The notes beneath the pieces were generated by a model, which ran no database searches, was not told the origin of the DNA, and worked only from the letters and a program-made list of their open reading frames with translations. Below are positions 529 through 61,157 of a stretch of 64,000 nucleotides of DNA, one piece after another. Source of the stretch: Saprospira grandis str. Lewin (GTDB taxonomy: Bacteria; Bacteroidota; Bacteroidia; Chitinophagales; Saprospiraceae); the NCBI RefSeq assembly GCF_000250635.1, contig NC_016940.1, forward strand, positions 1,288,995 through 1,352,994, written 5' to 3'. The first letter of the stretch is position 1; every line of letters begins with the position of its first letter. The translations under genes and the position numbers were made by a program.

Positions 529-666
529 TGGCCTAGCGCTGTGCAGGGGTGGCCCGCAGGGCCAGACCAAGCAAAATGAGCGCAGCGAAATTTTGTGAAG
601 GGCCGAGCAGACTTGCGAGCCCCGAAACATAGCGCCCGCAGCCTGCTGCGGGAGGCCCCAAAAAAT
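529..666 (-). repeat. GC-rich interspersed repeat, copy 1 (reverse orientation, ends GGAGGCCCCAAAAAA)
   Basis: The sequence ttggcctagcgctgtgcaggggtggcc...gggccgagcagacttgcgagcccc...gaggccccaaaaaa matches the other copies, for example 47084..47199 and 39513..39634. Confidence 0.85.
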
Positions 667-685
667 AAAACAAATCCCCTTAAAT

Positions 686-1204
686 ATGCGTATATTTAAA
701 GTTATTATTTCATTCTTTTTTTTGCTGAGTTGTTCTCCTCCCCCAGAAGTTGTGGCTGATCAGCCTGCGCCAGAGCCTGTAGAAAAAGAGGAGGTTGCTG
801 CTCCGCCTGTAGCCGAGCCCAAGCCAGTAGTGGCCATAGACAGCAGTGGGCCCAAGCGGGCCAAAAAGCCCAGTTTGCGGCCAGCTTTTCCTCAATTTGA
901 TAGTTTGGCCCATGATTTTGGGGAGGTTATTCAAGATTCAGTGCTTCGGCATCGCTTTCATTTTGAGAATACTGGAGAGCGGCCTTTAGAGATAGAATCG
1001 GTGCAGGGAAGTTGTGGTTGTATACAGGGCAGCCAGCCATTTTTGCCCATTGGGCCGGGAGAAAAAAGTTATATTGATGTCCGTTTTGATAGTCGGGGAC
1101 GGCAGGGGGCTGAATACAAATACCTTTTGGTGAATTGGAAGGGCAATGAGGAGCCATTGAAGCTGGAAGTCCGGGCAAAAGTCTTGTTAAAAGAGAAAAA
1201 ATAG
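686..1204 (+). CDS. DUF1573-domain lipoprotein
   Basis: Signal peptide with LLSC lipobox. The DUF1573 signature is HDFGEV...FENTGERPLEIESVQGSCGC...GEKSYIDVRFDS. Confidence 0.8.
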   Translation: MRIFKVIISFFFLLSCSPPPEVVADQPAPEPVEKEEVAAPPVAEPKPVVAIDSSGPKRAKKPSLRPAFPQFDSLAHDFGEVIQDSVLRHRFHFENTGERPLEIESVQGSCGCIQGSQPFLPIGPGEKSYIDVRFDSRGRQGAEYKYLLVNWKGNEEPLKLEVRAKVLLKEKK

Positions 1205-1241
1205 TGGTATATTCGAGAAGATAACCAAAAAACTATTTTCG

Positions 1242-1955
1242 ATGAAAAACTTTATCTTTTTGGCCTTTTTAGGGGCCTTACTTTTGGGGCAAACAGCCTG
1301 TAAACGCAGTGTAGAAGGCGAGACACAGAGCTGGGAGGCCAACAAGGGAAATGTACAGAAGCTATCGGCCAAGTACAGTAACTTTAAGCCTGCTTTTGAG
1401 GAAATCTTGAAAAAAGCGGAGGCTAAAATGACCGAAGCGCAGGCGATGACTGATGAGAAGGCCAAGATTTCGGCCATGGCGGAGGCCAACTCGATTATTC
1501 GGCCCAAATTTGTGCGGGGCTTAGAGGGCATGGACCGCAAGATTTCTACTTTGGAAGACCTGATGGCCAAGGCTAGTCAGCAATCTAAGGACCATAGCGA
1601 CCGAGATGCTGCTTGGGCGGCTAAAAGCAGTGGCGAGCGGGCTATTCGGGAGGCTCGCGAGCTTATTCGCAGCGCCAAAGTGAGCTCGGCAGCAGTAGCC
1701 GATGGCATTGTTAATGATGCCGAGCGGCAGTTGAGTTCGGCCCAAAAGCGCTTACAAGAAGTGGTCAAAACGGCCCAGAAAAAAGCCGATGAAAAAGAAA
1801 AAGCAAAGGCCGATCAGAAAGCAGAAGAAACGGCTAAGCAAGAAGTCGAAGAGAAAAAAGCTTCGCCCATCAAATGTGGGTACTGCGGTACAATGAACAA
1901 GCCTGGCAGCTTAAAATGTAGCTCTTGTGCTGCTCCCTTAGAGGCCAATAAATAG
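1242..1955 (+). CDS. hypothetical coiled-coil lipoprotein with C-terminal zinc-ribbon (CGYCG...CSSC)
   Basis: Signal peptide with lipobox (LGQTAC). The middle is long, charged and helical. The C-terminus carries a CxxC...CxxC motif. Confidence 0.6.
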   Translation: MKNFIFLAFLGALLLGQTACKRSVEGETQSWEANKGNVQKLSAKYSNFKPAFEEILKKAEAKMTEAQAMTDEKAKISAMAEANSIIRPKFVRGLEGMDRKISTLEDLMAKASQQSKDHSDRDAAWAAKSSGERAIREARELIRSAKVSSAAVADGIVNDAERQLSSAQKRLQEVVKTAQKKADEKEKAKADQKAEETAKQEVEEKKASPIKCGYCGTMNKPGSLKCSSCAAPLEANK

Positions 1956-1971
1956 GTGGAACGAAGGGCAT

Positions 1972-2010
1972 AAAAAAGCCGCAAAGGAGAAATTCCTTTG
2001 CGGCTTTGCT
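1972..2010. terminator. bidirectional rho-independent terminator
   Basis: Hairpin agccgcaaagg-agaaatt-cctttgcggct flanked by A and T runs. It lies between convergent genes 1242..1955 (+) and 2013..2543 (-). Confidence 0.6.
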
Positions 2011-2012
2011 GT

Positions 2013-4038: not shown

Positions 4039-4179
4039 TTTTTGGGGGCTGCCCCTGCGGCCTTCGGCCTTGGGTCGGGCCATTGCGCAGCTCGCAGGTC
4101 TGCTCGGCCCTGCGCAAAATTTCGCTGCGCTCATTTTGCTGGGTCTGCGGCTTCGCCGCCCTGCTACAGCCCCTCAGCC
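4038..4179 (+). repeat. GC-rich interspersed repeat, copy 2 (forward: TTTTGGGGGCTGCCCC...CCCCTCAGCC)
   Basis: Starts right after the ompA-like stop codon. Contains gggtcgggccattgcgcagctcgcaggtctgctcggccctgcg. Confidence 0.9.
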
Positions 4180-4346
4180 AGATTTAATTGCGCTGCTTTG
4201 GCTATAGTTTGCTATGAATTTTTGGCTAGACCAGCTATTTTTTAAGGGCATAGCCTTCGCTATGGCCGAGAAAAATAGGGCCGACTAGCGGAAAATTGCT
4301 GCAAACTATAAAAGTGAGTGCATTTAAATTTGGCTATAGCCTGCGG
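4180..4346 (+). repeat. AT-rich 167-bp 'B' element, copy 1 (second repeat family, abuts GC-rich repeat)
   Basis: About 99% identical to 7797..7964. Contains the hairpin gcatagcc-ttcg-ctatggc. Confidence 0.85.
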
Positions 4347-4482
4347 CGGCTCCGCCGCCTGTCCACCGCCATTGGACCAAAAAAGCCGAGCCTGCACTAG
4401 GCAGACTCGACTTCACTTAATAACCCTAAAACCTTAACCTTTGGCTTAAATTGAATTAAGCCTCTGGAAAACCAAAAAACTC

Positions 4483-5138: not shown

Positions 5139-5280
5139 AGGGCGCGCAGCGCCCGCAGGCCTAGCGATGCGGAGGGGGGCGGCGAAGCCGCAGACCGAGC
5201 CAGCTTGCTGGCGAAGGGCCGAGCAGACCTGCGAGCCCCAAAGCGTAGCGCCTGCCGTAGGCAGGAGGCCCCAAAAAAAA
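5139..5280 (-). repeat. GC-rich interspersed repeat, copy 3
   Basis: The sequence ggcctagcgatgcggagggg...ggcgaagccgcagacc...gggccgagcagacctgcgagcccc...ggaggccccaaaaaaaa lies just 3' of the minus-strand protease gene. Confidence 0.85.
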
Positions 5281-5310: not shown

Positions 5311-7443
5311 TTACTTTTTCAGTTTCATATAATCTTTAAGGATAAAGGCGACCTCTTCGAGGTAAGCGTCTTTTTCTAAGCCAGCATGCCATTTCTCAAA
5401 GCTTTTGGCCTTCACGCTATCGAGAGCGATTTGCTCCTTATCGGCCTTGAGGTTATAGATAGAAAAGTCCTCAATTTTGGGCATCATATCCTTATACTGC
5501 TCGGCCTCCTTATCGGTTTTGGCCTGATGGGCCTCATAATCTTCTAGCTGAAGCGGATAAACGGTTTCGCCCTGTTGTTTTTCCAGCCATTTTCCGTGCT
5601 CTTCTAGCAACTGAAAAGTTTTGCTTTTTGCTTGGCGTTTTGCGCTTTTGCTTTGCAATTTGGGCAAGGCCTTCATTTTCTTTTTATGATAATTGGCCGG
5701 ATCAATTTCGGACCAAGCCATGGGATAATCCTCATCTTTTTCGCCTACTTTGAGGTAGCTATAGCTACCGGGCAGCACGATATCGGGTTCTACCCCTTTG
5801 AGTTGGGTAGAGCCGCCATTGATGCGATAGAACTTTTGGATTGTAATTTTGAGGCTACCGAGTGCGCCCAAATCTTTGTAGCGAGGCGGCACCACCGCAT
5901 CTAGATCCATAAAGCGCTGCACAGTTCCCTTACCAAAAGTAGAGGGGCTCGTGCCGACAATAATGGCGCGGCCATAGTCCTGCAAAGCGGCCGCCATAAT
6001 CTCAGAAGCCGAGGCAGAATAGGCATTTACGAGAATAATGAGGGGGCCATTATAGAGGGCGCCGGCCTCTTTATCTTCTAGCACATAGGGGCGATTATCG
6101 CGGCTTTTGACCTGTACCACGGGGCCGCGGTCAATAAATAGGCCGGTCATTTTGACCACATCAGAGAGCGAGCCACCGCCATTAAAGCGGAGGTCGATCA
6201 CGATACCATCAATATTTTCTTGGAGTAATTTGCGGACCTCCGCTTCCACATCAGTAGCACAGCGGCGGCCGTTGGGGTCTTGAAAATCGGCATAAAAGCT
6301 ACGCAGATCAATAAGGCCCATTTTCACGCCGGCCTTTTTGTGTTCTACGATAGCCGATTTGGCGTAACTTTCTTCTAGGACCACCACATCGCGGATGATT
6401 GGAATCACCTTAGTTTCGCCACTTGTTTTCTTGACTGTTAGGCGCACCTCGGTGCCTTTTTTGCCGCGGATCATGGGCAAAACGTCATCAATGCGCATAT
6501 CGACTACATTGACGGCCTCTTCATTGCCTTGGGCCACCTTAATAATTTTGTCATTCACCTCTAGCTCGCCTTGTTTCCAAGAGGCTGAGCCGGGCACAAT
6601 ATTCACCACCTTAATGTAGCCATCTTCTTGGCGAAGCTGGGCACCGATTCCCTCTAATTTGCCCGACATACGGATATTAAAGTTCTCTTTTTCGAGTGGG
6701 GGAAAATAGCCAGAGTGTGGTTCGTGGGCATTGGCAAAGGCATTGACATAATTGGCAATACGGTCGTCACGGCTATCTTTCTTGATATTTTCTGACCATT
6801 CTCGGTAGCTTTTGAGCAGCTTTTCGCGCTCCTCTTTTTCTATTTCCTCAAAGGTTTTGATGCTATCGACTTCCTCGCCTTTTTCTTGGGCTTTTTCTTG
6901 TCGCTCGAGGCGGTCATGCACACGGCCAAGAACCTGTAATTTGAGGTAATCGTACCAGCGGGCTTTTAGTTCTTCGGGATCCTTGAGGAACTCTAATTTT
7001 TCGCCATCCATTTGAAACTCGCCTTTTTGGGCAAAGCGAAAGGGTTTGGCCAAAATGTCTTCATAATAGCCTTCTACCTGCTTAATTCTTTCGTCAAAGG
7101 TATTATTGACCAGATTAAAAAAGCTAAAATCGCCAGCTTGGGCGGCATCATCGAGTTTAAATTTAAAGTCTTCAAACTTTTTGACATCATCGGCCAAGAA
7201 AAAGCGCTTATTGAGGTCCATCCGCTTGAGGTAAAGGGTATAGACCTTTTCAGAAAACTCATCATTGATGGCTTCTGGTGCATAATGGTTGTAGCGCATA
7301 CTTTGGAGCACCACTTCGAGCAGCAATTCTTCTCGGTTAGAGAGGTCGCCACTAATTTGGGGTTGATTATCTTGCCCTTGCTGCCAGCGGAAGGCAATAA
7401 GTAGGCTACAAGCGGCAGTAATTAAGAGGAGTTTACGGATCAT
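5311..7443 (-). CDS. S41 family carboxy-terminal processing (tail-specific) protease
   Basis: Signal peptide and PDZ-like region. The S41 catalytic region is IDLRFNGGGSLSDVV...LIILVNAYSASASEIMAAALQDYGRAIIVGTSPSTFGKGTVQ. Confidence 0.85.
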   Translation of the reverse strand: MIRKLLLITAACSLLIAFRWQQGQDNQPQISGDLSNREELLLEVVLQSMRYNHYAPEAINDEFSEKVYTLYLKRMDLNKRFFLADDVKKFEDFKFKLDDAAQAGDFSFFNLVNNTFDERIKQVEGYYEDILAKPFRFAQKGEFQMDGEKLEFLKDPEELKARWYDYLKLQVLGRVHDRLERQEKAQEKGEEVDSIKTFEEIEKEEREKLLKSYREWSENIKKDSRDDRIANYVNAFANAHEPHSGYFPPLEKENFNIRMSGKLEGIGAQLRQEDGYIKVVNIVPGSASWKQGELEVNDKIIKVAQGNEEAVNVVDMRIDDVLPMIRGKKGTEVRLTVKKTSGETKVIPIIRDVVVLEESYAKSAIVEHKKAGVKMGLIDLRSFYADFQDPNGRRCATDVEAEVRKLLQENIDGIVIDLRFNGGGSLSDVVKMTGLFIDRGPVVQVKSRDNRPYVLEDKEAGALYNGPLIILVNAYSASASEIMAAALQDYGRAIIVGTSPSTFGKGTVQRFMDLDAVVPPRYKDLGALGSLKITIQKFYRINGGSTQLKGVEPDIVLPGSYSYLKVGEKDEDYPMAWSEIDPANYHKKKMKALPKLQSKSAKRQAKSKTFQLLEEHGKWLEKQQGETVYPLQLEDYEAHQAKTDKEAEQYKDMMPKIEDFSIYNLKADKEQIALDSVKAKSFEKWHAGLEKDAYLEEVAFILKDYMKLKK

Positions 7444-7662: not shown

Positions 7663-7796
7663 TTTTTTGGGGCTGCCCCGCCCTGCGGGCGGGTCGGGCT
7701 ATGTCGCAGCTCGCAGGTCTGCTCGGCCCTGCGCTTTTTTCGCTTCGCTCAAAAAGCTGGGTCTGGCCTTCGGCCACTGCTATCTATCCCTCAGCC
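7663..7796 (+). repeat. GC-rich interspersed repeat, copy 4 (forward)
   Basis: The sequence ttttttggggctgccccgccctgcgggcgggtcgggctatgtcgcagctcgcaggtctgctcggccctgcgc...ccctcagcc matches the family. Confidence 0.9.
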
Positions 7797-7964
7797 AGAT
7801 TTAATTGCGCTGCTTTGGCTATAGTTTGCTATGAATTTTTGGCTAGACCAGCTATTTTTTAAGGGCATAGCCTTCGCTATGGCCGAGAAAAATAGGGCCG
7901 ACTAGTGGAAAATTGCTGCAAACTATAAAAGTGAGTGCATTTAAATTTGGCTATGGCCTGCGGC
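7797..7964 (+). repeat. AT-rich 'B' element, copy 2
   Basis: Near-identical to 4180..4346 and again directly follows a forward GC-rich unit. Together they form a ~320-bp composite direct repeat. Confidence 0.85.
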
Positions 7965-8037
7965 CCTTTGGGCCTGCCAAACGCAAAAGCCCCAATTTGC
8001 TAAAGCAAATTGGGGCTTGGGCCAGGGGGGCTCGGTC

Positions 8038-8752: not shown

Positions 8753-9295
8753 TTAGTCACGTTTGATCACGACTGTATTAGTCATTTCTTTACCAGCCTC
8801 GTCTTTTAGCTTGAAGAAATACTTACCTTCTTCTAGGCTAGTTACATTGAGGGCTTTGTAATTGTGACCTTGGTTGAGGCTAAACTTGTTGTTGGCGGCT
8901 AGTTCGAAACCTTCTTCATCGTACATCTCGAACATAACATCTTTAGCTTCTTCTGCTTTGAGGCCAAAAACGAACATATCGTCTACGGCTTTATCTTCCA
9001 TAGTGAGTTCGATACCAGCAAGTTGGTCTTCTTTTTCGGCAGACATCAAAGAGCTGTGGATATCGTTTACTGCATCTTCGCTTTGCTTAGCGTTTGCTTT
9101 TTTGGCTTCTACAACGAAAACGTCTTCAGCAGTGATCGCTACATCTGCGCCTTGGAACTGAACAGTTTGTACACCACGAGTGCTATTTACGTTCTTGATA
9201 TTTACGGCAGTAGCAGCTTGTTGGCTATCAGAGCCACAAGAGCCCATAGTGAATAGTACGGCGGCAGCGAGGAGGAAGCTTGACAACTTTTTCAT
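8753..9295 (-). CDS. small lipoprotein with T9SS-type C-terminal sorting domain (member 2)
   Basis: Lipobox MGSCGSD. The C-terminus FEMYDEEGFELAANN...GHNYKALNVTSLEEGKYFFKLKDEAGKEMTNTVVIKRD is T9SS-CTD-like. Confidence 0.7.
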   Translation of the reverse strand: MKKLSSFLLAAAVLFTMGSCGSDSQQAATAVNIKNVNSTRGVQTVQFQGADVAITAEDVFVVEAKKANAKQSEDAVNDIHSSLMSAEKEDQLAGIELTMEDKAVDDMFVFGLKAEEAKDVMFEMYDEEGFELAANNKFSLNQGHNYKALNVTSLEEGKYFFKLKDEAGKEMTNTVVIKRD

Positions 9296-13954: not shown

Positions 13955-14175
13955 TTTTGGGGCCTCCGCAGCCAAGCTGCGGCAGTTACTCCCTTTGGTC
14001 GTCGAACGGCGAACTAAAGTTCTTGTTGTCGCTTCGGGGCTCGCAGCTTTGCTCGGCCGCTCGTTTTTTCGCTGCGCTCAAAAACTCGGTCTGGCCCTCT
14101 GGGCCAGCCCTCCGCATCGCTAGGCCAACAAAGGCCTTCGGCCCAGAGCGGCTTCGCCGCCAAAAGAGTCCGCCT
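13955..14175 (+). repeat. GC-rich interspersed repeat, copy 6 (long variant, GGGGCCTCCGC head)
   Basis: The sequence ttttggggcctccgcagccaagctgcggc...ggggctcgcagctttgctcggcc...ggtctggccc...ggcttcgccgcc matches the family. Confidence 0.8.
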
Positions 14176-16127: not shown

Positions 16128-16298
16128 GCGGTGGACAGGCGGCGAAGCCGCCGCAAGCGAGCGAAGCGAAGCGGCTGAGGGGCTGTAGCAGGGCGGCGAA
16201 GCCGCAGACCAAAGCCCGCAGGGCTGCAGGGCCGAGCAAGCCTGCGAGCTGCGCAATGGCCCGACCCAAGGCCGAAGGCCGCAGGGGCAGCCCCAAAA
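16128..16298 (-). repeat. GC-rich interspersed repeat, copy 7
   Basis: The sequence ggcggcgaagccgccgc...ggctgaggggctgtagcagggcggcgaagccgcagacc...gggccgagcaagcctgcgagctgcgcaatggcccgaccc...ggggcagccccaaaa ends 4 nt from the stop of the TetR gene. Confidence 0.9.
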
Positions 16299-18850: not shown

Positions 18851-18985
18851 TTTTTGGGGCTGCCCCTCCCTGCGGTCGGGTCGGGCTGTGTCAGGGCTCG
18901 CAGGTCTGCTCGGCCCTGCGCAAAAATGCTTCGCATTTTGCTGGGTCTGCGGCTTCGCCGCCCCCTTTTCCATCCCTCAGCCGGC
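18851..18985 (+). repeat. GC-rich interspersed repeat, copy 8 (forward)
   Basis: The sequence ttttttggggctgcccctccctgcggtcgggtcgggctgtgtcagggctcgcaggtctgctcggccctgcgc...ccatccctcagcc matches the family. Confidence 0.9.
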
Positions 18986-19062
18986 GGCCCTTTGGGCCTA
19001 CTAGACCTAAAAAGGCCCAAAACCTTAGGGTTTTGGGCCTTTGGGGCCAGAAAGCATTCTCT

Positions 19063-19572: not shown

Positions 19573-19746
19573 TTTGGAGATTGGAGGCGGCGAAGCCGCC
19601 CCGGCCGCAGGCCGAATGGCCCAGCGCTGCGGAGGGGTGGCCGAAGGCCAGACCAAAGGCAGGCTTTGCCTGCCTGCAGGGCCGAACAGGCCTGTGAGCC
19701 CCGCAGCATAGCGGCGGCCGCCCCAAAATAAAGGGCGGCCGCGGGC
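19573..19746 (-). repeat. GC-rich interspersed repeat, copy 9
   Basis: The sequence ggaggcggcgaagccgcc...ggtggccgaaggccagacc...gggccgaacaggcctgtgagcccc...ccccaaaa abuts the stop of 19749..20621. Confidence 0.8.
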
Positions 19747-19748
19747 CC

Positions 19749-20621
19749 CTAAAAAATACTTTGATTCGTGAGTCGAAGGGCAGCACGGAGGGCATTCAGC
19801 ATATTTCCATGCGTTTGAATTTCTTGAATATCTAGGCCAATATCGACAATCGTTTGGGCCACATTGCCAGAAATGCCAGAGAGCATCGCTTGGCAGCCCA
19901 TCAGTTTGGCCGCCTTGCTCATCTTAATCAGGGCGTTGGCCACCTCGCTATCCATAACGGCGATACCGCGGATATCGAGAATAAACACCTTGGCGCTTTT
20001 TTCCGCAATTTCCTCGAGCATAGCGTGCATAACCTGTTGGGCGCGTTCGCTATCTAGAAAGCCCACCAAAGGCAGCAGCAGAATGCCCTCCCAAAGCGGG
20101 GTAATGGGCGTAGACATAGAAGAAAGCGTTTCCTCCTTTTCTCGGAGCAACTCATCTTTGGCCGAGCTATAGCCATCGGTGAGCGTAGAGATGGCGATGC
20201 CCGTAAACTTTCGGTAAGTTTTGAGCAGGCTCAGACTGAGCAGGCCATGTTCTTCGAGTAAATCCTGGACCTCTTGATGATAATAATTGAGGAAAGCCAG
20301 ATAGGCATCGAAGGGGATGCCCACGCTGGCGAAGACCTGTCCAAAAAAGCGTTGGCGTTCGATATACTCATCATCGGCTTGGCCAGAGAGCAAATCATCC
20401 CAAAAAATGTCCTCACTATCTCGGATTGCCTGCAAGACATCCTCGGTATAATAAGTTAGAAAGAAAGGGTGATTTTGCAGCCAATCGTAGAAGCGTTGAT
20501 AGAGTGCATCTTTTTGATCATAAATTTTTTGGCCTGCTTGGGCAAGTTCCTCTAGCTCTTCATCTTGGAGGAAAAAGAGTGCTTGATAGTAGGGCCAATT
20601 TTTTTCGTTAGGATCAATCAT
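19749..20621 (-). CDS. RsbR-like protein: N-terminal sensor (globin-like) domain + C-terminal STAS domain
   Basis: The C-terminus TPITPLWEGILLLPLVGFLDSERAQQVMHAMLEEI...VFILDIRGIAVMDSEVANALIKMSKAAKLMGCQAMLSGISGNVAQTIVDIG is a classic RsbR/RsbS-type STAS. About 170 aa of N-terminal helical domain precede it. Confidence 0.7.
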   Translation of the reverse strand: MIDPNEKNWPYYQALFFLQDEELEELAQAGQKIYDQKDALYQRFYDWLQNHPFFLTYYTEDVLQAIRDSEDIFWDDLLSGQADDEYIERQRFFGQVFASVGIPFDAYLAFLNYYHQEVQDLLEEHGLLSLSLLKTYRKFTGIAISTLTDGYSSAKDELLREKEETLSSMSTPITPLWEGILLLPLVGFLDSERAQQVMHAMLEEIAEKSAKVFILDIRGIAVMDSEVANALIKMSKAAKLMGCQAMLSGISGNVAQTIVDIGLDIQEIQTHGNMLNALRAALRLTNQSIF

Positions 20622-24754: not shown

Positions 24755-24873
24755 TTTTTTGGGGCCTGCCGCCTTCGGCGGCCGGGCTGTGTCGTGGCTC
24801 GCAGGTCTGCTCGGCCCTGCGGCGCTAAAGCGCCTGGGTCTGGCCTTCGGCCACCACTATCCATCCCTAGGCC
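24755..24873 (+). repeat. GC-rich interspersed repeat, copy 10 (forward)
   Basis: The sequence ttttttggggcctgccgccttcggcggccgggctgtgtcgtggctcgcaggtctgctcggccctgcg...ccatccctaggcc matches the family. Confidence 0.85.
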
Positions 24874-25055
24874 AATTGACGCTTAGTTTATTGGGCTAAA
24901 ATAAGCAAGCTGCTTTTTCTAGAAAAGGACATTTCTGCAAAAAGTTACGTTCTTTAAAAATCGGGTGCTTGACAAAATAGTTGTATCTTTATACTCCCCC
25001 TCATTTTAGTACTCATTCAATTCACAAATTAGCTATTCCCCAACCCTTTTGTCCT

Positions 25056-25638: not shown

Positions 25639-25795
25639 AGGCGGCAAAGCCGCCGCAAAGGAGCGCAGCGACGCGGCTGAGGGGCTGTAGCAGGGCCGCC
25701 GCAGGCGGCAGACCAAAGCGCTGAAAGCGCTGCAGGGCCGAGCAGACTTGCGAGCTGCGCAATGGCCCGACCCGTAGCGAAGGGGCAGCCCCAAA
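25639..25795 (-). repeat. GC-rich interspersed repeat, copy 11
   Basis: The sequence ggcggcaaagccgccgc...ggctgaggggctgtagcagggccgccgcaggcggcagacc...gggccgagcagacttgcgagctgcgcaatggcccgaccc...ggggcagccccaaaa ends 5 nt from the stop of 25801..27252. Confidence 0.9.
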
Positions 25796-25800
25796 ATAGC

Positions 25801-33782: not shown

Positions 33783-33784
33783 AT

Positions 33785-33922
33785 TTTTGGGGCCTCCGCC
33801 TCGCTTCGCTCGTCGGCGCTACGCTTTGGGGCTCGCTATTCGCTCGGCCCTGCGCAGGCTAAGCCTGCTTGGTCTGGCCTGCGGCCACCCCGCCGCATCG
33901 CTAGGCCTGCGGCCCTTCGGGC
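33785..33922 (+). repeat. GC-rich interspersed repeat, copy 12 (forward, GGGGCCTCCGC head)
   Basis: The sequence ttttggggcctccgcctcgcttcgc...ggggctcgctattcgctcggccctgcgc...ggtctggcctgcggccacc matches the family. Confidence 0.8.
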
Positions 33923-34939: not shown

Positions 34940-35111
34940 GGCGAGGCGGCGCAGCCGCCTGCGAGCGCAGCGAGCCATGGCCCAGCGCTGCGGAGTGGGT
35001 GGCCGAAGGCCAGACCGAAGCGCTGCAAGCGCTGAAGGGCCGAGCGAATAGCGAGCCCCGCAGCATAGCGGCGGCCGCCCCGCTATAAAGGGCGGCCGCG
35101 GGCCCCAAAAA
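34940..35111 (-). repeat. GC-rich interspersed repeat, copy 13
   Basis: The sequence ggcgaggcggcgcagccgcc...gggtggccgaaggccagacc...gggccgagcgaatagcgagcccc...ggccccaaaaaa lies between the baseplate gene and the fibre-like gene. Confidence 0.8.
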
Positions 35112-39442: not shown

Positions 39443-39512
39443 GCTTAAAAATTTCTTATCGTCTAAAAATTGGGATCAACTATTTGTCTTAAGTGCGGAC
39501 TTGGGTGGTCAT

Positions 39513-39634
39513 TGGCCTAGCGCTGCGGAAGGGTGGCCCGAAGGGCCAGACCGAAGCCCGCAGGGCTGAAGGGCCGAGCAGGCTTGCGAGCCCTGCAGCA
39601 TAGCGCCGCAGCTTTGCTGCGGAGGCCCCAAAAA
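39513..39634 (-). repeat. GC-rich interspersed repeat, copy 14 (inside CIS operon)
   Basis: The sequence ttggcctagcgctgcggaagggtggcccgaagggccagacc...gggccgagcaggcttgcgagccc...ggaggccccaaaaa ends at the base before the PAAR stop codon. Confidence 0.85.
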
Positions 39635-42016: not shown

Positions 42017-42052
42017 AAGCTCTATATTTTTTTGCTGTTTTTAAGCAGGTTT

Positions 42053-42180
42053 TTTTGGGGCCTGCGGGCTTCGCCCGCCGCTATGTTGCAGGGCTCGCAA
42101 GCCTGCTCGGCCCTTCGCAAAAGCTTCGCTTTTGCTCGGTCTGGCCCTGCGGGCCACCCTTCCACAGCGCTAGGCCAAAA
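42053..42180 (+). repeat. GC-rich interspersed repeat, copy 15 (inside CIS operon)
   Basis: The sequence tttttttggggcctgcgggcttcgcccgccgc...gggctcgcaagcctgctcggccc...ggtctggccctgcgggccacc matches the family. Confidence 0.8.
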
Positions 42181-42190
42181 ACGGCTTCGC

Positions 42191-42880
42191 TTAATGGGCC
42201 ACCACCTTAGAGAAAGCGTAAGAAAGTTCAATTTCTTGGACCAGCAAATCCTCTGAAGTAGAATTGAGCGAGCTCAAGCTCATTTTAGAGGGATAGGCAA
42301 AATTAAACTCCATAGAAATCAAAATTTGCGGCTTTCCAGATTGCGTCAAGTTCGGGTGCATTACATTTACCTGTACCCCCTTGAGCTTAATCTGCTCATT
42401 CCAAGAAGCCATGGCCTCAAAACTTTCTTCACACCATTTGGTCCAAGGATCCGAGCTTTTAATGACATCTGGGCGCACCAAGCGCTTTAGCGTAATGGCC
42501 GAGTTTTTCATTTTATCGGGTAAGTCAATTGGATAATTATATCCCCCCTCATTATACGTCTTCTTTCCCTCCAAACCAATCTCCAAACCACTCACCTCAA
42601 TAAAGGAGTTATGAATATTGGTATCGCCAGGAGTAGGCAAGCCATTGGCTCCGCCACCGTCTATCTTATTGATTGCCTTTTTCATCATTCCTCCAATCAT
42701 TCCTCCTACAAAGGTATCTACAGCCCCTTTAGCAACTCCCGCCAAAAAGCTATTCCCTTCATGCTTCTGATCATACATCTGCACATCAAAATAAAAGGCC
42801 GGAATGGGCGAGGTCGTTTTTTCGTCCTCTTTCATGACTTCATCTAAGAAGCGCTCAAATGGGCTAATGGTATTATTCAT
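42191..42880 (-). CDS. tube-family protein with insertion (Afp5/tube-initiator-like)
   Basis: PAFYFDVQM...SFIEVSGLEIGLEGKKTYNEGGY...NSAITLKRLV matches the gp19/Hcp-like tube motifs FxVxIDG / EVSGLE / NITLKRG. A ~45-aa Gly-rich insert is present. Confidence 0.7.
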   Translation of the reverse strand: MNNTISPFERFLDEVMKEDEKTTSPIPAFYFDVQMYDQKHEGNSFLAGVAKGAVDTFVGGMIGGMMKKAINKIDGGGANGLPTPGDTNIHNSFIEVSGLEIGLEGKKTYNEGGYNYPIDLPDKMKNSAITLKRLVRPDVIKSSDPWTKWCEESFEAMASWNEQIKLKGVQVNVMHPNLTQSGKPQILISMEFNFAYPSKMSLSSLNSTSEDLLVQEIELSYAFSKVVAH

Positions 42881-46895: not shown

Positions 46896-47083
46896 TAAGC
46901 TCTTCTGCTTTAAGTCCCTTAAAATTAGAGAATTTAATTTTGGTCTGCAAAGTTTATTCGCAGTTTTTTTTCATTTTTTTTAATAAAAGCTAAAATTTAC
47001 GTTGACTTAACATTTTTCGTAGATTTAGCTAATATTACTTTGCCATTAGTTAAGCGACAAAGCCCAACTACAGCCGCCCTCAT

Positions 47084-47199
47084 TTGGCCTAGCGATGTGC
47101 AGGGGTGGCCAAAGGCCAGACCGAAGCGCGCAGCGCTGAAGGGCCGAGCGAACAGCGAGCCCCGAAACGTAGCGCCTGCCGAAGGCAGGAGGCCCCAAA
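47084..47199 (-). repeat. GC-rich interspersed repeat, copy 16 (inside CIS operon)
   Basis: The sequence ttggcctagcgatgtgcaggggtggccaaaggccagacc...gggccgagcgaacagcgagcccc...ggaggccccaaacc ends 5 nt from the stop of the terminator-protein gene. Confidence 0.85.
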
Positions 47200-47204
47200 C
47201 CTTC

Positions 47205-48078: not shown

Positions 48079-48244
48079 TTTTTTGGGGCTGCCCCTCCTT
48101 TCAGTCGGGTCGGGCTGTGCCGCAGCTCGCAGTTCTGCTCGGCCCTGCGCTTTTTTCGCTTCGCTCAAAAAGCTGGGTCTGGCCTTCGGCCACTGCTATC
48201 CATCCCTCAGCCTGCGGCGGCTTTGCCGCCTACTCGCCGCAAAA
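48079..48244 (+). repeat. GC-rich interspersed repeat, copy 17 (forward)
   Basis: The sequence ttttttggggctgcccctcctttcagtcgggtcgggctgtgccgcagctcgcagttctgctcggccctgcgc...ccatccctcagcc matches the family. Confidence 0.9.
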
Positions 48245-55118: not shown

Positions 55119-55655
55119 CTTTTGGGGCTGCCCCAGCCTTTGGCTGGGTCGGGCTGTGTCGCAGCTCGCTGTTCGCTCGGCCCTGCGGCGGCTTTGCCGC
55201 CTGGGTCTGGCCTAAGGGCCACTGCTTTCCATCCCTCAGCCGAGGCGCTGCGCGCCTTGGCAGGCGGCTTTGCCGCCTGCTATATGAATGAGCTGAGGCC
55301 CGGAGGGCCGAAGGCTATGCAGCTAGTGTTGGCCCCCAAGGCCAACGCTAGCTGCCCCCAGGCGGAGGCGGCTTTGGAGGGTCTTTGGCCTGAAATGGAA
55401 TATACTGAGGGCCAAATTTAAATTCAAGCAGAGAAGAAAGTGGCCAGCCGCCTACCGCCGGCCGGGTCAAATCAGCCCGCAGGGCTGTCTGAACAAAATG
55501 CCATTTTGCAGCGGCGAAGCCGCTGCAAGGGCCTAGCGCTGTGCAGGGGTGGCCGCAGGCCAGACCAAGGAGCGAAGCGACGCAGGGCCGAGCAGACCTG
55601 CGAGCCCCGCAACATAGCGCCGCAGCAAAGCTGCGGAGGCCCCAAAAGAAAAAAG
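55119..55655 (+). repeat. left arm of ~540-bp inverted repeat pair (two fused GC-rich repeat units, copies 18 and 19, plus linker)
   Basis: It is at least 95% identical to the reverse complement of 60543..61157. For example ggcggctggccactttcttctctgcttgaatttaaatttggccctcag here versus its reverse complement there. It includes the internal palindrome gctatgcagctagtgttggcccccaaggccaacgctagctgc. Confidence 0.9.
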
Positions 55656-59042: not shown

Positions 59043-59182
59043 GTCCATCTGCGCTATTGCACAGATGAGCAATTCTATTGATGTACAGTAAGCTGTACAT
59101 CCAATAACCTATTTCCTTTCTTTATTACTAAAGATTGGGCAGCCCCCTCCTTGTCCAATACTTAGACTTAAGCCTCCTAGTC

Positions 59183-60166
59183 ATGAATTTTCTTTTCGAT
59201 ATGTCTATGGTGACAGGTAATATCCTCTCGCCTCCCGTTCTTTTCTTCTTTTTGGGCCTTATTGCTGTAGCCCTCAAATCTGATCTTGAAATTCCTCAAC
59301 CACTGCCCAAGCTCTTTTCGCTCTATCTTTTGATGGATATTGGTCTACATGGTGGACATGAGCTTTATCATAGTGGTTTTTCTTGGGAGTTGGTCACGGT
59401 CCTTGGCGCCTGCTTTCTGATGGCCTCTATTGTCCCTATTTATAGCTTTTTTATTCTTAGAGCTCGCTTTGGAGCCGCCGATGCAGCCGCTATTGCGGCC
59501 ACCTTTGGTTCTATTAGTGCCGTGACTTTTATTACTGGAATATCCTTCCTTGAAAGCCAGCAAGTAGCCTATAAAGGATATATGGTTGCGGGCATGGCGC
59601 TTATGGAGTCTCCTGCGATTATTATTGGAGTACTTCTCTATAATATCTATGGCCAAAAGGAACAAAACAGTAAAAAGAAAACTAATTGGGGGCATATTCT
59701 CCGAGATGCCTTTTTTAATGGCTCTATTATGCTCTTGGTTGGCGCCCTACTCATCGGTATCCTTTCTGGAGATAAGGGCTGGCACGACTTCCAACCCTTT
59801 GATAGCATCTTTAAAGGGATGCTTTGTTTCTACTTGCTCGACAATGGTATTGTGGCGGCTCGTCGCCTAAAAGCTTTGCGCGGAAACCTAGGTTTTTTGC
59901 TTTCTTTCAGTATCCTGATGCCTTTGTTTAATGCCGCTTTGGGGATTGGTATCGCCTACCTCATTGGCCTAAGCAAAGGAAATGCACTACTTTTCTGTCT
60001 CCTCACCGCTAGTGCTTCTTATATCGCCGTTCCTGCGGCTATGCGCTTGGCGATCCCCAAATCTAATCCTGCCTTTACGGTTCCTGTGGCCTTAGGTATT
60101 GTTTTCCCTTTCAACGTAATTATAGGCATTCCGCTCTACTATTATATCATCCAACAAATTCTCTAA
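59183..60166 (+). CDS. sbtA: SbtA-family (DUF897) sodium-dependent bicarbonate transporter-like permease
   Basis: MNFLFD...PPVLFFFLGLIAVALKSDLEIP...LLMDIGLHGGHEL has about 10 TM segments and a two-repeat architecture. It is immediately followed by a PII-like gene, as in sbtAB operons. Start chosen at the internal ATG. Confidence 0.7.
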   Translation: MNFLFDMSMVTGNILSPPVLFFFLGLIAVALKSDLEIPQPLPKLFSLYLLMDIGLHGGHELYHSGFSWELVTVLGACFLMASIVPIYSFFILRARFGAADAAAIAATFGSISAVTFITGISFLESQQVAYKGYMVAGMALMESPAIIIGVLLYNIYGQKEQNSKKKTNWGHILRDAFFNGSIMLLVGALLIGILSGDKGWHDFQPFDSIFKGMLCFYLLDNGIVAARRLKALRGNLGFLLSFSILMPLFNAALGIGIAYLIGLSKGNALLFCLLTASASYIAVPAAMRLAIPKSNPAFTVPVALGIVFPFNVIIGIPLYYYIIQQIL

Positions 60167-60168
60167 TT

Positions 60169-60468
60169 ATGAATATCGTCAAATCTGTCAAAATAGAGGT
60201 CATTCTCGAAAGTATCCAGCTGGAGCGCTTTATCGAAATGCTAGAAGAGGCCGGTGCCCATGGCTATACCGTCTTCGGAAATATTTCGGGAAAGGGCCAA
60301 AATGGCATGCTCGACCATAATTGCCGAGCCAAAATTTTCTCTAATAGCTACCTTTTTACGGTCTGTTCTGAAGAAGTGGCCCAAAATATTTTGCCCCAAA
60401 TTGCCCTCTTTTTAGAGGATTGTTCTGGGACCTGTTTAACCTCTGAGGTGAATCACCTGAAGGTGTAA
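60169..60468 (+). CDS. sbtB: PII-like signalling protein SbtB
   Basis: A ~100-aa protein (KIEVILESIQLERFIEMLEEAGAHGYTVFGNISGKGQNG...) with the PII/DUF190 ferredoxin-like pattern and a T-loop-like GKGQNG. The C-terminal CSGTC is a redox-lid-like motif. It starts 2 bp after sbtA. Confidence 0.7.
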   Translation: MNIVKSVKIEVILESIQLERFIEMLEEAGAHGYTVFGNISGKGQNGMLDHNCRAKIFSNSYLFTVCSEEVAQNILPQIALFLEDCSGTCLTSEVNHLKV

Positions 60469-60502
60469 AAGGGCGTTTTTATCCCTTTTCTTTTTTGTAG
60501 CT

Positions 60503-60540
60503 TGGGAGCAGCAGTTTACTGTTGCTCCCTTTTTTTATTC
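60503..60540 (+). terminator. rho-independent terminator after sbtB
   Basis: Hairpin gggagcagcag-tttac-tgttgctccc followed by T7. Confidence 0.55.
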
Positions 60541-60542
60541 TC

Positions 60543-61157
60543 TTTTTTTTGGGGCCTCCGCAGCTTTGCTGCGGCGCTATGTTTCGGGGCTCGCAGGGCT
60601 GCTCGGCCCTGCAGCCGCCTTTGGCGGCTTGGGTCTGGCCTGCGGCCACCCCTGCACAGCGCTAGGCCCTTGCAGCGGCTTCGCCGCTGCAAAATGGCAT
60701 TTTGTTTAGACAGCCCTACGGGCTGATTTGACCCGGCCGGCGGTAGGCGGCTGGCCACTTTCTTCTCTGCTTAAATTTAAATTTGGCCCTCAGTATATTA
60801 CATTTCAGGCAAAAGGCCCTCCAAAGCCGCCTCCGCCTGGGGGCAGCTAGGGTTGGCCTTGGGGGCCAACCCTAGCTGCATGGCCTTCGGCCCTTCGGGC
60901 CTCAGCTTATACATCCTGCAGGCGGCAAAGCCGCCGCAAAGGCGCGCAGCGCCTCGGCTGAGGGGCTGTAGCAGGGCCGCCAAAGGCGGCAGACCAAAGC
61001 GGCGCAGCCGCTGCAGGGCCGAGCAGACCTGCGAGCTGCGCAATGGCCCGACCCGACCAATAATTCATGAGGGTTTTAACCCTCATTTTGTATAAGCTCG
61101 CAAAGCGATGCCGCTTTGCGCTGGGTTTCAACCCGGTGGAAGGGGCAGCCCCAAAAC
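60543..61157 (-). repeat. right arm of inverted repeat pair (copies 20 and 21; carries an extra ~85-bp palindromic insertion at 61055..61140)
   Basis: Reverse complement of 55119..55655; see the left-arm entry. The extra segment is gaccaataattcatgagggttttaaccctcat...gggtttcaacccggtgg. Confidence 0.9.

What the first reader, a model, noticed from the sequence alone, without database searches (positions are those of the whole stretch)
529..61157. Hyper-abundant GC-rich interspersed repeat family (21 copies in 64 kb) with TTTTGGGGCTGCCCC terminus
Nearly every intergenic region contains a 120-170 bp element of about 70% GC in a genome of about 45% GC. The element is modular. Its head is TTTTGGGG(C)CTGCCCC or the GGGGCCTCCGC variant. 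Its core is GGGTCGGGCCATTGCGCAGCTCGCAGGTCTGCTCGGCCCTGCG. Its tail is GGTCTGGCC...GCGGCTTCGCCGCC...CAGCC. Copies occur in both orientations with many compensatory-looking variants. In 13 of 21 copies the TTTTGGGG head lies immediately 3' of a stop codon on the coding strand, often within 1-6 nt. Examples are 4038, 16298, 19746, 25795, 39634 and 47199. Three copies sit in intergenic gaps inside the CIS operon. This density, about 1 per 3 kb, is REP/BIME/MITE-like. The ends are not obviously target-duplicated, and the element may be a transcribed structured 3'-UTR module such as a terminator, attenuator or RNA-stability determinant. It generates many spurious Ala/Gly/Arg-rich ORFs in the track.
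Basis: seen in the sequence. Interest (0 to 1): 0.55.

Follow-up and report, generated by a model that had tools for sequence, protein, structure and literature searches.

The report
Fixed GC-rich multi-hairpin intergenic repeat family
The window, from a Saprospira grandis strain, is peppered with an undescribed REP/BIME-like family of about 130-nt GC-rich multi-hairpin DNA repeats that fill about a third of intergenic DNA; they stay at the same sites across species while their hairpin cassettes are swapped between copies, and they are not a strand-specific 3'-UTR RNA or a terminator.

Summary
The repeat is real: a covariance model finds exactly 21 copies in 64 kb (basic unit 120-140 nt, 59-71% GC in 45.9% GC DNA). 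They make up 5.6% of the window and 31% of its intergenic DNA. The host is Saprospira grandis. Related copies occur in other Saprospiraceae, with weaker matches in Lewinellaceae MAGs.

The unit has a conserved 30-bp multi-helix fold with strong covariation (96% of cells paired vs 74-79% in shuffles). Orientation is random relative to genes (64 tandem-sense vs 67 antisense) and to replication. Stems fold equally well on both strands, and no U-tract follows the structure. A strand-specific 3'-UTR, terminator or attenuator RNA is therefore not supported.

There are no TIRs, no TSDs, and no transposase in 1.74 Mb examined. About 60 of 60 testable sites are occupied at the orthologous position in a relative only 80-90% identical. 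Orthologous copies are either nearly unchanged or have whole hairpin cassettes replaced with pairing kept, which indicates gene conversion.

Hairpin loops are strand-asymmetric: 477 C-TNC-G vs 17 C-GNA-G. On the complementary strand these read as the hyperstable d(C-GNA-G) DNA mini-hairpin loop.

Best reading: an ancient, fixed REP/BIME-class structured DNA repeat family. It is a new variant of a known kind, and its mobilising or binding factor is unknown.

The parts
520..664 (-). Copy 1 (head type GGGGCCTCC); the head faces the start of the + gene at 686
   Evidence: nhmmer; CM 526-663, 117 bits
4040..4381 (+). Copy 2 (head type GGGGCTGCC). The head T-run starts 1-2 nt after the stop at 4038 (first G 5 nt after). 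The tail is interrupted by the nested 177-nt insert 4171-4347, and the 3' extension resumes at 4348-4381
   Evidence: 4041-4183, 80 bits; insert absent in strain WHT
5142..5277 (-). Copy 3. Its T-run is the T-tract of a 12-bp terminator hairpin (5306-5278) of gene 5311-7443
   Evidence: core cassettes replaced in WHT
7664..7990 (+). Copy 4, antisense to gene 8038-8655. The tail carries the nested insert 7788-7964
   Evidence: identical in WHT; the 150-nt part of the insert is absent in metagenome contig L123
11307..11468 (-). Copy 5, whose head T-run starts about 7 nt after the stop of the Porin_10 gene (first G 12 nt after). A bidirectional terminator lies beyond the tail at 11253-11274
13955..14160 (+). 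Copy 6, with the optional internal module of about 42 nt (starts 13985, GTTACTCCCTTTGGTCGTCGAAC...). The module is absent from the WHT ortholog
16139..16298 (-). Copy 7, whose head T-run starts 4 nt after the stop at 16303 (first G 8 nt after). The tail end GGACC-A8 abuts a terminator T-tract on the opposite strand (16082-16111)
18851..18986 (+). Copy 8
   Evidence: P2, spacer, P3 and P4 cassettes replaced in WHT
19587..19754 (-). Copy 9 (head type GGGGCCCGC). The TAG stop of gene 19749-20621 lies inside the head. It carries the compensated GCTCAC..GTTCGG variant
   Evidence: identical in WHT
24757..24884 (+). Copy 10, in a divergent intergenic region
25641..25796 (-). Copy 11, whose head T-run starts 4 nt after the stop at 25801 (first G 8 nt after)
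33784..33919 (+). Copy 12, 3' of the E1 dehydrogenase gene
34947..35110 (-). Copy 13, 3' of the 1256-aa gene
39510..39634 (-). Copy 14, sense, downstream of the VgrG-like spike gene of the CIS cluster
   Evidence: (119 bits)
42052..42194 (+). Copy 15, antisense, in the gap between the tube-like gene (42191-42880) and the spike gene (39947-41791)
47080..47200 (-). Copy 16, whose head T-run starts 5 nt after the stop at 47205 (first G 8 nt after)
48080..48229 (+). Copy 17, next to the IS3-family element
   Evidence: 98% identical to its ortholog in the 80-90% relative
55120..55276 (+). Copy 18, tail-to-tail with copy 19
55511..55647 (-). Copy 19. Its T-run follows the terminator hairpin of the SprB-repeat gene
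60546..60687 (+). Copy 20, tail-to-tail with copy 21
60922..61156 (-). Copy 21. The true head is at 61142-61156. A segment of about 78-88 nt (about 61055-61141) replaces the first hairpin and is absent in DSM 2844
55263..55566 (.). One arm of a 304-nt, 95% inverted repeat (the other arm is 60632-60935). It is formed by the tails and shared spacer of pairs 18/19 and 20/21, and brackets 5 kb
   Evidence: I1

Best explanation
This is a lineage-specific (Saprospiraceae) family of REP/BIME-class interspersed structured DNA repeats.

Anatomy (shown). On the strand I call 'top', each unit starts sharply with T3-4 + GGGGC. It contains invariant unpaired blocks: GCTCGC-N5-6-GCTCGGCCCT, GGTCTG and a tail C(G/C)CT(A/C)(A)G(G/C)CC. 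It folds into a closing helix P1, long-range helices P1b and P2, and three local hairpins P1a, P3 and P4. Optional modules are a 42-nt internal domain, a spacer insert and 3' extension hairpins.

Behaviour (shown). The copies are ancient and positionally fixed. They are not currently transposing. They evolve by all-or-none replacement of perfect-palindrome cassettes between the invariant anchors, which is ectopic gene conversion among about a thousand paralogs. Copies that have not been converted stay about as conserved as the neighbouring coding DNA.

Origin (inferred). The family originally spread as a non-autonomous element that folds as single-stranded DNA. The strand complementary to 'top' carries C-GNA-G mini-hairpin loops. 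There are no TIRs and no TSDs, and heads abut T-runs. All of this fits HUH (RAYT or IS200-like) handling, and Bacteroidetes RAYT subclass 2.6 is reported to be associated with atypical, non-GTAG structures.

Present role (inferred). If the element has one, it is orientation-independent structural punctuation at the ends of transcription units. That could be a very stable hairpin cluster in either transcript orientation acting as a decay or processing barrier, or a DNA or cruciform binding site, as for E. coli REP/BIME. It is not an intrinsic terminator.
For: Reality and abundance:
- 21 copies in 64 kb.
- 5.6% of the window and 31% of its intergenic DNA.
- More than 100 8-kb blocks of S. grandis DSM 2844 hold 1-4 copies each, spread over the whole 4.4-Mb scaffold and the 56-kb second replicon.
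- Also present in other Saprospiraceae and in further metagenomes, with a weak match in two Lewinellaceae MAGs that carry the same copy (39.8 bits).

Structure:
- 18 of 25 RNAalifold pairs are compensated.
- With P1 added, 96.2% of cells are paired vs 78.8% in shuffles (0/500) and 35-57% when partners are slid. There are 375 double-change cells vs 111 expected.
- On 150 CM-aligned copies: 95.9% vs 73.5%, 990 vs 337 double-change cells, covariation score 0.535 vs 0.148.

DNA-level rather than strand-specific RNA:
- Orientation vs genes is 64 sense, 67 antisense, 55 convergent, 45 divergent.
- Orientation vs chromosome position is about 50:50 in every 400-kb bin.
- MFE is equal on both strands; variable-pair G.T is 18 vs A.C 20; wobble intermediates are almost absent.

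Loop polarity: 477 C-TNC-G vs 17 C-GNA-G triloops on the top strand. d(GNA) loops closed by C-G are exceptionally stable in DNA (PMC3201870, PMC13037366).

No TSD. No consistent 3' terminus or TIR.

Fixation:
- All 13 comparable sites are occupied in strains WHT and DSM 2844.
- 56 of 61 sites are occupied in the relative 80-90% identical. The 5 exceptions resolve to 3 occupied, 1 internal-deletion remnant and 1 regex artefact.

Conversion:
- Between strains, elements show 11.4% mismatch vs 3.9% in genes and 4.5% in other intergenic DNA.
- The pattern is all-or-none cassette swaps that keep pairing.
- Across species, 9 of 28 orthologs are best matches (up to 99% identity), while about 8 of 28 are no closer than random paralogs.
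- Intact orthologs are 0.884 identical vs 0.878 for flanks; converted ones are 0.739 vs 0.879.

Terminators: 12% of heads share the T-tract of a terminator-like hairpin vs 3.4% of control T-runs.

Against: - No RAYT/Y1 transposase was found. Motif screens and phmmer with E. coli RayT found nothing in 1.74 Mb (best E 0.18). That is only about 35-40% of a genome equivalent.
- No GT[AG]G or CGTC foot tag.
- The unit is far larger and more elaborate than any described REP: a 126-position multi-helix junction with an invariant single-stranded core and optional peripheral domains. This looks more like a functional RNA or protein-recognition scaffold.
- Not one insertion polymorphism was seen, so past mobility is inferred, not shown.
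- Loop polarity implies that one strand matters, yet orientation is random with respect to both transcription and replication.
- Tandem arrays of 5'-partial units are unexplained.
Confidence: 0.55

Rival explanations
1. Host-functional DNA sites rather than selfish repeats. In this reading the element is a genome-wide cis-element recognised as DNA by a dedicated host protein, for example a nucleoid, gyrase or IHF-type protein, a topological insulator, or a priming or recombination factor. It would be bound as a duplex, cruciform or folded single strand, and kept at gene boundaries by selection.
For: - About 60 of 60 sites are conserved at 80-90% genome identity.
- Intact copies are as conserved as coding flanks.
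- The unpaired blocks are invariant even in other families, and they include a direct repeat GCTCG spaced about one helical turn apart.
- Orientation is independent of genes and of replication.
- Loop polarity fits stable ssDNA hairpins.
Against: No binding protein has been identified. Frequent wholesale overwriting of copies and an internal-deletion remnant show that individual sites tolerate drastic change. Copy density differs greatly between related lineages, which is more typical of selfish amplification.
Confidence: 0.2
2. Strand-specific cis-regulatory RNA in 3' UTRs (terminator, attenuator or stability determinant).
For: Strong covariation. Many heads lie within a few nt of stop codons: 47 of 140 same-strand cases have stop-to-first-G distance of 17 nt or less. 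Copies lie inside a co-oriented CIS gene cluster.
Against: - Sense and antisense are equally frequent in tandem gene pairs, 64 vs 67.
- There is no strand asymmetry in stems or folding energy.
- G.U intermediates are almost absent.
- The T-run precedes the structure, and A-rich sequence or further hairpins follow it.
- Real terminators sit beside the element.
- No Rfam family matches, even at E of 5 or less.
Confidence: 0.07
3. Functional RNA of a mobile or selfish element: a ribozyme-like or guide-like scaffold such as an omega RNA, bridge RNA or retrozyme-type RNA. This would explain the invariant single-stranded core at a multi-helix junction and the optional peripheral domains.
For: The architecture is typical of catalytic or scaffold RNAs. 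The core is conserved, the peripheral stems vary, and there are defined insertion points for extra domains (a 42-nt module in 49 copies, always in the same polarity). One end is sharp and the other is ragged. Tandem partial units occur.
Against: No Rfam hit. No associated ORF (TnpB, IscB, IS110 or RT) next to any copy examined. No mobility. Perfect-palindrome stems without wobble pairs, and DNA-type GNA loops, point to DNA.
Confidence: 0.07
4. A currently active MITE mobilised in trans by a DDE transposase.
For: High copy number, intergenic location, both orientations. An IS3-family element and other IS copies are present in the genome.
Against: No TIR. No TSD. No presence/absence polymorphism at about 73 compared sites. 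No similarity between the element ends and the IS ends seen.
Confidence: 0.03

Closest known systems
REP / BIME elements of Enterobacteria (bacterial interspersed mosaic elements)
   Same: Extragenic, GC-rich and palindromic, with hundreds to thousands of copies at gene ends and inside operons. Both are a mosaic of conserved and variable modules, lack target duplications, occur in both orientations and have species-specific sequence variants. From my own knowledge, REP/BIME roles (mRNA 3' protection, protein binding) do not depend on orientation.
   Different: A REP is a single 20-40-nt imperfect palindrome with a GT[AG]G foot. Here the unit is a 126-position, 30-bp multi-helix fold with long-range helices, an invariant unpaired core, no GTAG or CGTC tag, and mostly single rather than dimeric units. 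Density (about 1 per 3 kb, 31% of intergenic DNA) is at the extreme end.
REPIN-RAYT systems, especially TnpA_REP subclass 2.6 (Bertels group 5) of Bacteroidetes with 'atypical secondary structures' (PMC6006769)
   Same: The same phylum. Non-GTAG structured repeats dispersed in the genome. Long-term vertical persistence. No TSD. ssDNA-type hairpins.
   Different: No RAYT was detected in 1.74 Mb. The published structures are described as having weaker secondary structure, while these are very stable (about -60 kcal/mol). REPINs are symmetric inverted dimers, while this unit is polar.
BOX elements of Streptococcus pneumoniae, and Correia/NEMIS and ERIC elements
   Same: Modular composition (as in boxA-boxB-boxC). 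Size of 100-200 nt. Co-transcribed with flanking genes. Stable folds.
   Different: Correia and ERIC have TIRs, and Correia has a TA duplication. None of these is reported with a covarying multi-junction fold, GNA-loop polarity or this degree of positional conservation. This comparison rests on my own knowledge.
IS200/IS605-derived palindrome-associated elements (PATEs) and omega RNA scaffolds
   Same: No TIR and no TSD. Structured ends. One end abuts a short specific sequence (here a T-run).
   Different: No replication-strand orientation bias. No IS605 or omega RNA Rfam hit. No TnpA or TnpB gene seen. The 3' end is heterogeneous.

Membership tests
REP/BIME - REPIN-RAYT | Extragenic, high-copy, GC-rich palindromic repeats without target duplication | tested here: met
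   21 copies in 64 kb, all intergenic apart from one head overlapping a stop codon. No TSD.
REP/BIME - REPIN-RAYT | A short single hairpin (20-40 nt) with a conserved unpaired GT[AG]G (or CGTC) tetranucleotide at its foot | tested here: not met
   The unit is a 126-position multi-helix structure. The invariant unpaired motifs are GCTCGC..GCTCGGCCCT and GGTCTG, and there is no GTAG or CGTC foot in the consensus.
REP/BIME - REPIN-RAYT | A cognate single-copy RAYT (Y1/HUH) gene flanked by the repeats | tested here: inconclusive
   None was found by HUH/Tyr motif screens or by phmmer with E. coli RayT in 1.74 Mb. About 60% of the genome was not available.
REP/BIME - REPIN-RAYT | Predominant organisation as inverted dimers (REPINs) | tested here: not met
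   Only 2 tail-to-tail pairs among the 21 copies (18/19 and 20/21). Most copies are single and polar.
MITE (DDE-transposase dependent) | Terminal inverted repeats and flanking target-site duplication | tested here: not met
   The 3' end is heterogeneous. Flank k-mer repeats equal the permuted controls for k = 6-10.
MITE (DDE-transposase dependent) | Insertion-site polymorphism between related genomes | tested here: not met
   13 of 13 sites are shared between strains. About 60 of 60 are shared with a relative 80-90% identical.
IS200/IS605-type ssDNA elements / PATE | Orientation bias relative to the direction of replication (lagging-strand template insertion) | tested here: not met
   135 + and 115 - overall, about 50:50 in each 400-kb bin, and no association with GC-skew sign.
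IS200/IS605-type ssDNA elements / PATE | No TIR or TSD; the left end abuts a short conserved target; ssDNA hairpins | tested here: met
   The head always follows at least 3 T. No TSD. C-GNA-G DNA-type loops occur on one strand, 477 vs 17.
Intrinsic (Rho-independent) terminator | A GC-rich hairpin immediately followed by a U-tract on the transcribed strand | tested here: not met
   The T-run precedes the structure, and the 3' side is A-rich or continues as further hairpins. Canonical terminators lie adjacent to the elements.
Curated structured RNA family (Rfam) | A match to a covariance model | tested here: not met
   No hit at any copy at the gathering threshold or at E of 5 or less.
Cis-regulatory structured RNA (generic) | A covarying structure together with a fixed orientation relative to the regulated gene and wobble-tolerant stems | tested here: not met
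   Covariation is present, but orientation is random, wobble intermediates are nearly absent and both strands are equivalent.

The most novel reading that the evidence does not exclude
The element is not a decaying selfish repeat. It would be a selectively maintained, genome-wide structured nucleic-acid module: a roughly 126-nt multi-helix junction with an invariant single-stranded core, read as folded ssDNA or as RNA in either orientation by a dedicated, still unidentified protein. It is held at more than a thousand fixed gene-boundary sites and kept uniform by directed cassette exchange. That would make it a new class of chromosomal cis-element or domesticated replicator, distinct from REP-RAYT.
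Probability: 0.2. Interest if true: 0.75.

Novelty: new variant of a known kind. Interest (0 to 1): 0.55.

Why it matters
If the picture holds, Saprospira carries one of the densest and most elaborate REP-like families known: about 1 copy per 3 kb and about a third of intergenic DNA. The combination of properties is unusual. The multi-helix fold is conserved across families. Occupancy is essentially complete across species-level divergence. Turnover happens by structure-preserving cassette exchange rather than by transposition or decay. The hairpin-loop polarity points to folded single-stranded DNA.

That makes it a clean natural system for open questions about bacterial repeats. How do such populations persist for millions of years without a visible transposase? 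How much of RNA-style covariation can be produced by DNA-level processes such as gene conversion or palindrome-templated repair? Do such elements become host-useful punctuation of transcription units?

There are also practical consequences. The family generates spurious Ala/Gly/Arg-rich ORFs, breaks assemblies, and will confuse searches for structured RNAs in Bacteroidota.

Tried and rejected
1. Known RNA family. Rfam at the gathering threshold and at E of 5 or less found nothing at any copy. My passing ideas of HDV-like, hammerhead or twister motifs in the core or the 42-nt module found no support there.

2. Nested insertions as a way to define boundaries. Four apparent 'head inside core spacer' cases turned out to be tandem 5'-partial units followed by one full unit, with no interrupted 3' half downstream. 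They gave no TSD or boundary information.

3. TIR hypothesis (TTTTGGGGCC ... GGACCAAAA). Only 41 of 272 copies end that way, and the 3' ends are heterogeneous.

4. TSD or retroposon-like A-tail hypothesis. No flank repeats above control.

5. Stop-codon specificity, or the element supplying the stop. TAG:TAA is 24:23 for close copies vs 32:58 for distant ones, which is not convincing.

6. Replication-strand bias. None.

7. RAYT or IS200 search. Two regex screens and phmmer were all negative in the DNA available.

8. ORFs bracketed by element pairs as candidate transposases. They are ordinary genes: an SprB-repeat protein, an SbtA-like transporter and a small ORF.

9. Phage link. Only one weak, degenerate hit on one viral contig (30.8 bits).

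10. Literature. No paper describes this repeat in Saprospira or Saprospiraceae.

11. 'Unconverted copies are more conserved than flanks'. After measurement this was toned down to 'about as conserved' (0.884 vs 0.878).

Full report
**Observation.** The head motif TTTTGGGGCTGCCCC occurs 11 times at 2 mismatches or fewer, vs 0.37 expected. The 43-nt core occurs 6 times vs 0 expected. Iterated nhmmer finds 21 copies. A covariance model built later, run with filters off, finds exactly the same 21, each on one strand only, at 57-119 bits and 59-71% GC. The window as a whole is 45.9% GC. Ten copies are on the + strand and eleven on the - strand. They occupy 5.6% of the window and 31% of its intergenic DNA. 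They sit in 17 of 35 intergenic gaps of at least 60 nt, and in 17 of 21 gaps of at least 200 nt. 'Nearly every intergenic region' is therefore an overstatement, but not by much for the larger gaps.

**Host and distribution.** A gapped core pattern captures 19 of 21 window copies with zero chance expectation. Scanned against one genome per species, it hit more than 100 8-kb blocks of Saprospira grandis DSM 2844, with 1-4 copies per block, on both the 4.4-Mb scaffold and the 56-kb scaffold. It also hit several uncultured Saprospiraceae MAGs and two Lewinellaceae MAGs; the Lewinellaceae matches are weak (39.8 bits) and are the same copy in two bins from one sample. The window is about 93-96% identical to strains DSM 2844 and WHT. 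A metagenome scan added about 0.67 Mb, mostly from a Saprospira relative 80-90% identical to S. grandis, plus genuine copies from other samples. One viral contig holds only a weak, degenerate match. No paper in the library describes the element, and no Rfam family matches any copy even at E of 5 or less.

**Anatomy.** I call the strand that reads TTTTGGGGC... 5' to 3' the 'top' strand.
- The 5' boundary is sharp. T is 99-100% at positions -1 to -3 and 81% at -4, followed by GGGGC. There are four main head types.
- Invariant unpaired blocks are shared even with copies from other families: GCTCGC-N5-6-GCTCGGCCCT, GGTCTG, and the tail C(G/C)CT..G(G/C)CC.
- Between these anchors lie variable perfect hairpins (P1a, P3, P4) and two long-range helices (P1b, P2). 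A closing helix P1 pairs head with tail.
- Optional parts are a module of about 42 nt between P1a and P2, an insert in the core spacer, and 3' extension hairpins. The 42-nt module occurs 65 times in about 1 Mb; 49 of those are inside an element in the same polarity and none in the opposite polarity. In the window it is in copy 6, starting at 13985.
- The 3' boundary is heterogeneous. The median GC-rich block is 147 nt.

**Structure.** RNAalifold on 83 diverse copies predicts 25 pairs, 18 of them with compensatory double changes. With P1 added (30 pairs):
- 96.2% of cells are paired, vs 78.8% in column shuffles (0 of 500 reach the observed value) and 35-57% when partners are slid by 1-3 columns.
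- There are 375 double-change cells vs 111 expected.
- On 150 model-aligned copies the figures are 95.9% vs 73.5%, 990 vs 337 double-change cells, and covariation score 0.535 vs 0.148.

The fold is therefore strongly supported, with the caveat that subfamily linkage inflates such statistics.

**RNA or DNA?** Several results argue against a strand-specific RNA.
- Over about 270 S. grandis copies with my own ORF-based gene calls, tandem-sense is 64, tandem-antisense 67, convergent 55 and divergent 45.
- The window's 13:8 split is within noise.
- Orientation is also about 50:50 in every 400-kb bin of the chromosome and is unrelated to GC skew.
- Mean MFE is -60.8 kcal/mol for the top strand and -60.5 for the bottom strand.
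- Apart from one invariant G.T, the variable helices show G.T 18 vs A.C 20.
- One-sided (wobble) changes are almost absent while double changes are abundant. The stems behave as interchangeable perfect palindromes, not as stepwise-compensated RNA helices.
- The T-run lies 5' of the structure, not 3'. Canonical terminators lie next to the elements, for example at 5306-5278 with its T-tract running into the head of copy 3, and at 11253-11274 beyond the tail of copy 5.
- 12% of heads share a terminator-like hairpin's T-tract, vs 3.4% of control T-runs. This also explains the bimodal T-run length of 3-4 or 6-7 nt.

**The one polar feature** is the hairpin loops. On the top strand, 477 triloops read C-TNC-G (TTC 238, TGC 210, TAC 22) and only 17 read C-GNA-G, out of 1032. 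On the bottom strand these are therefore C-GAA-G, C-GCA-G and C-GTA-G. This is the d(GCGNAGC) mini-hairpin motif, which is exceptionally stable in DNA when closed by C-G (PMC13037366, PMC3201870). It suggests that a folded single DNA strand matters, or once mattered.

**Mobility.**
- There are no target-site duplications. Flank k-mer matches equal the permuted controls for k = 6-10.
- There are no consistent terminal inverted repeats.
- Copies 2-9 are at identical sites in strain WHT, and copies 18-21 in DSM 2844.
- Against the relative 80-90% identical, 56 of 61 sites are occupied at the orthologous position. Of the five exceptions, two carry the element with a spacer insert, one has a mutated core, one is an internal-deletion remnant between GGCGCT repeats, and one was a regex false positive.
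- No insertion polymorphism of the GC-rich element was seen anywhere.
- By contrast, an AT-rich insert of about 177 nt nested in the tails of copies 2 and 4 is polymorphic and has imperfect TIRs of about 25 nt.

**Mode of evolution.**
- Between strains, element DNA shows 11.4% mismatches plus many indels, vs 3.9% in genes and 4.5% in other intergenic DNA.
- The differences are all-or-none. Copies 4 and 9 are identical to their WHT orthologs. In copies 3, 5, 6, 7, 8, 18 and 21, whole cassettes between the invariant anchors are replaced with pairing preserved. Examples are CTGCC/GGCAG to CCGCC/GGCGG, GCGGC/GCCGC to CAGGC/GCCTG, and GGGG/CCCC to GCAG/CTGC.
- Across species, 9 of 28 orthologs are each other's best match (up to 99% identical) and 16 of 28 rank in the top five. 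About 8 of 28 are no closer than random paralogs.
- Orthologs that still match best (rank 2 or better) are 0.884 identical vs 0.878 for mostly coding flanks. Overwritten ones are 0.739 vs 0.879.

This is the signature of ectopic gene conversion on a background of constraint or slow decay.

**Search for a partner enzyme.** ORFs next to or bracketed by elements are ordinary: an SprB-repeat/T9SS protein, an SbtA-like transporter, HU, Hsp20 and the CIS genes. The only transposase in the window is an unrelated IS3-family copy. HUH/Tyr motif screens and phmmer with E. coli RayT (fetched) found nothing in 1.74 Mb; the best E-value was 0.18. The literature shows that Bacteroidetes have their own TnpA_REP subclass (2.6). 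Its genes are flanked by atypical, non-GTAG secondary structures that recur in the genome (PMC6006769). Saprospira is not mentioned there.

**Interpretation.**
- Shown: the element is a REP/BIME-class interspersed structured DNA repeat family that is ancient, positionally fixed and homogenised by cassette conversion.
- Inferred, origin: it spread in the past as a non-autonomous element that folds as ssDNA and was handled by an HUH-type enzyme.
- Inferred, role: any present role is orientation-independent. It could be a very stable hairpin cluster in either transcript orientation, or a DNA or cruciform site at gene boundaries. It is not an intrinsic terminator or a strand-specific 3'-UTR RNA.
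- Why it is not a member of the canonical REP family: it lacks the GTAG or CGTC tag, the size does not fit, it is not organised as dimers, and no RAYT has been demonstrated. I therefore file it as a new variant of a known kind.
- Unexplained: why the loops are polar when orientation is random; the tandem 5'-partial units; the role of the invariant unpaired core; and what keeps about 100% of sites occupied over species-level divergence.

Noticed in passing
window 4171-4347 and 7788-7964: A 177-nt AT-rich repeat (99% identical copies) is nested at the same point (after CTCAGCC) in the tails of GC-rich copies 2 and 4. It has imperfect terminal inverted repeats of about 25 nt (ATAGTTTGC..AATTTT..CTAG). 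It is polymorphic: the whole insert is absent at the copy-2 site in strain WHT, with a 4-nt AGCC duplication at the junction, and its 150-nt inner part, bounded by 9-nt TTTGGCTAT repeats, is absent at the copy-4 site in metagenome contig L123. It is a genuine MITE-like element that seems to target the GC-rich repeat.
   Followed up: partly
L056:3823-4200, L076:700-1080, L059 (- strand, around 3793) and L116:2307-2700: Tandem arrays of one or two near-identical 5'-partial units (head + P1a + 42-nt module + GCTCGCTG..) lie directly in front of one complete element. No matching 3' half is found downstream. About 16% of all heads are preceded by GCTG. The mechanism is unexplained; slippage, recombination or template switching are possibilities.
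   Followed up: partly
window 13985-14029 (copy 6); 65 occurrences in the S. grandis loci: An optional internal module of about 42 nt, GTTACTCCCTTYGGTCGTCGAAC-[short hairpin, loop TAAA/TATA]-CTTGTTGTCG, always has the same polarity as the host element. It is present in the window but absent from the orthologous copy in strain WHT. A related insert, TGTTACTTGCTTCGCTGCGTCGGCTCCCGTTGGTCGGGTC, occupies the core spacer in other copies.
   Followed up: partly
window 61055-61141 (inside copy 21); L108 around 4360-4480; L027 and L199: A second family of small hairpins built on ..GGTT(G/A)AAACC.. (for example CTGTAGGTTGAAACCTACAGCCATACAACAA) recurs 46 times in about 1 Mb. Half of them lie next to a GC-rich element, in fixed polarity (23:1). 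In copy 21, a segment of about 78-88 nt made of such hairpins replaces the first hairpin and is absent in DSM 2844.
   Followed up: partly
window 48534-50033: A 1.5-kb IS3-family insertion sequence (orfA-like 48593-49015; rve integrase-core ORF 49036-49899), with copies about 96% identical in DSM 2844 loci L011 and L054.
   Followed up: partly
L035:3362-4985: A different IS of about 1.55 kb, with terminal inverted repeats TGGGTTGACCCACTTTTTA, is inserted inside a GC-rich element. A similar IS end follows a truncated element in L060 around 4263.
   Followed up: no
window 14214-14406: Two tRNA-Gln(TTG) genes lie 120 nt apart as a 97% tandem duplication. Metagenome contig L122 from a close relative has a single copy.
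   Followed up: partly
window 55263-55566 and 60632-60935: A 304-nt, 95% inverted repeat is made of the tails and spacers of element pairs 18/19 and 20/21. It brackets a 5-kb segment with an SprB-repeat/T9SS gene, a small ORF and an SbtA-like transporter. Both arms are also present in DSM 2844. This is a potential substrate for inversion.
   Followed up: partly
window 20628-23713 and 8753-10790: Two sets of three tandem paralogous genes: DUF6976 proteins of about 326 aa (70-84% DNA identity at 1087-nt spacing), and three 180-aa proteins. In strain WHT one of the 180-aa genes appears split into 70-aa and 101-aa ORFs.
   Followed up: no
window 28823-32182: A 1119-aa nSTAND1 NTPase with C-terminal WD40 repeats lies a few kb from the contractile-injection-system cluster (spike 39947-41791, tubes 42191-44104, sheath 44217-45710).
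   Followed up: no
L067:6061-6196 vs L174:600-800: The only decayed site found. In DSM 2844 the element core has been deleted between short GGCGCT direct repeats, leaving the head plus first hairpin joined to the 3' extension hairpin. This shows how copies are lost.
   Followed up: yes
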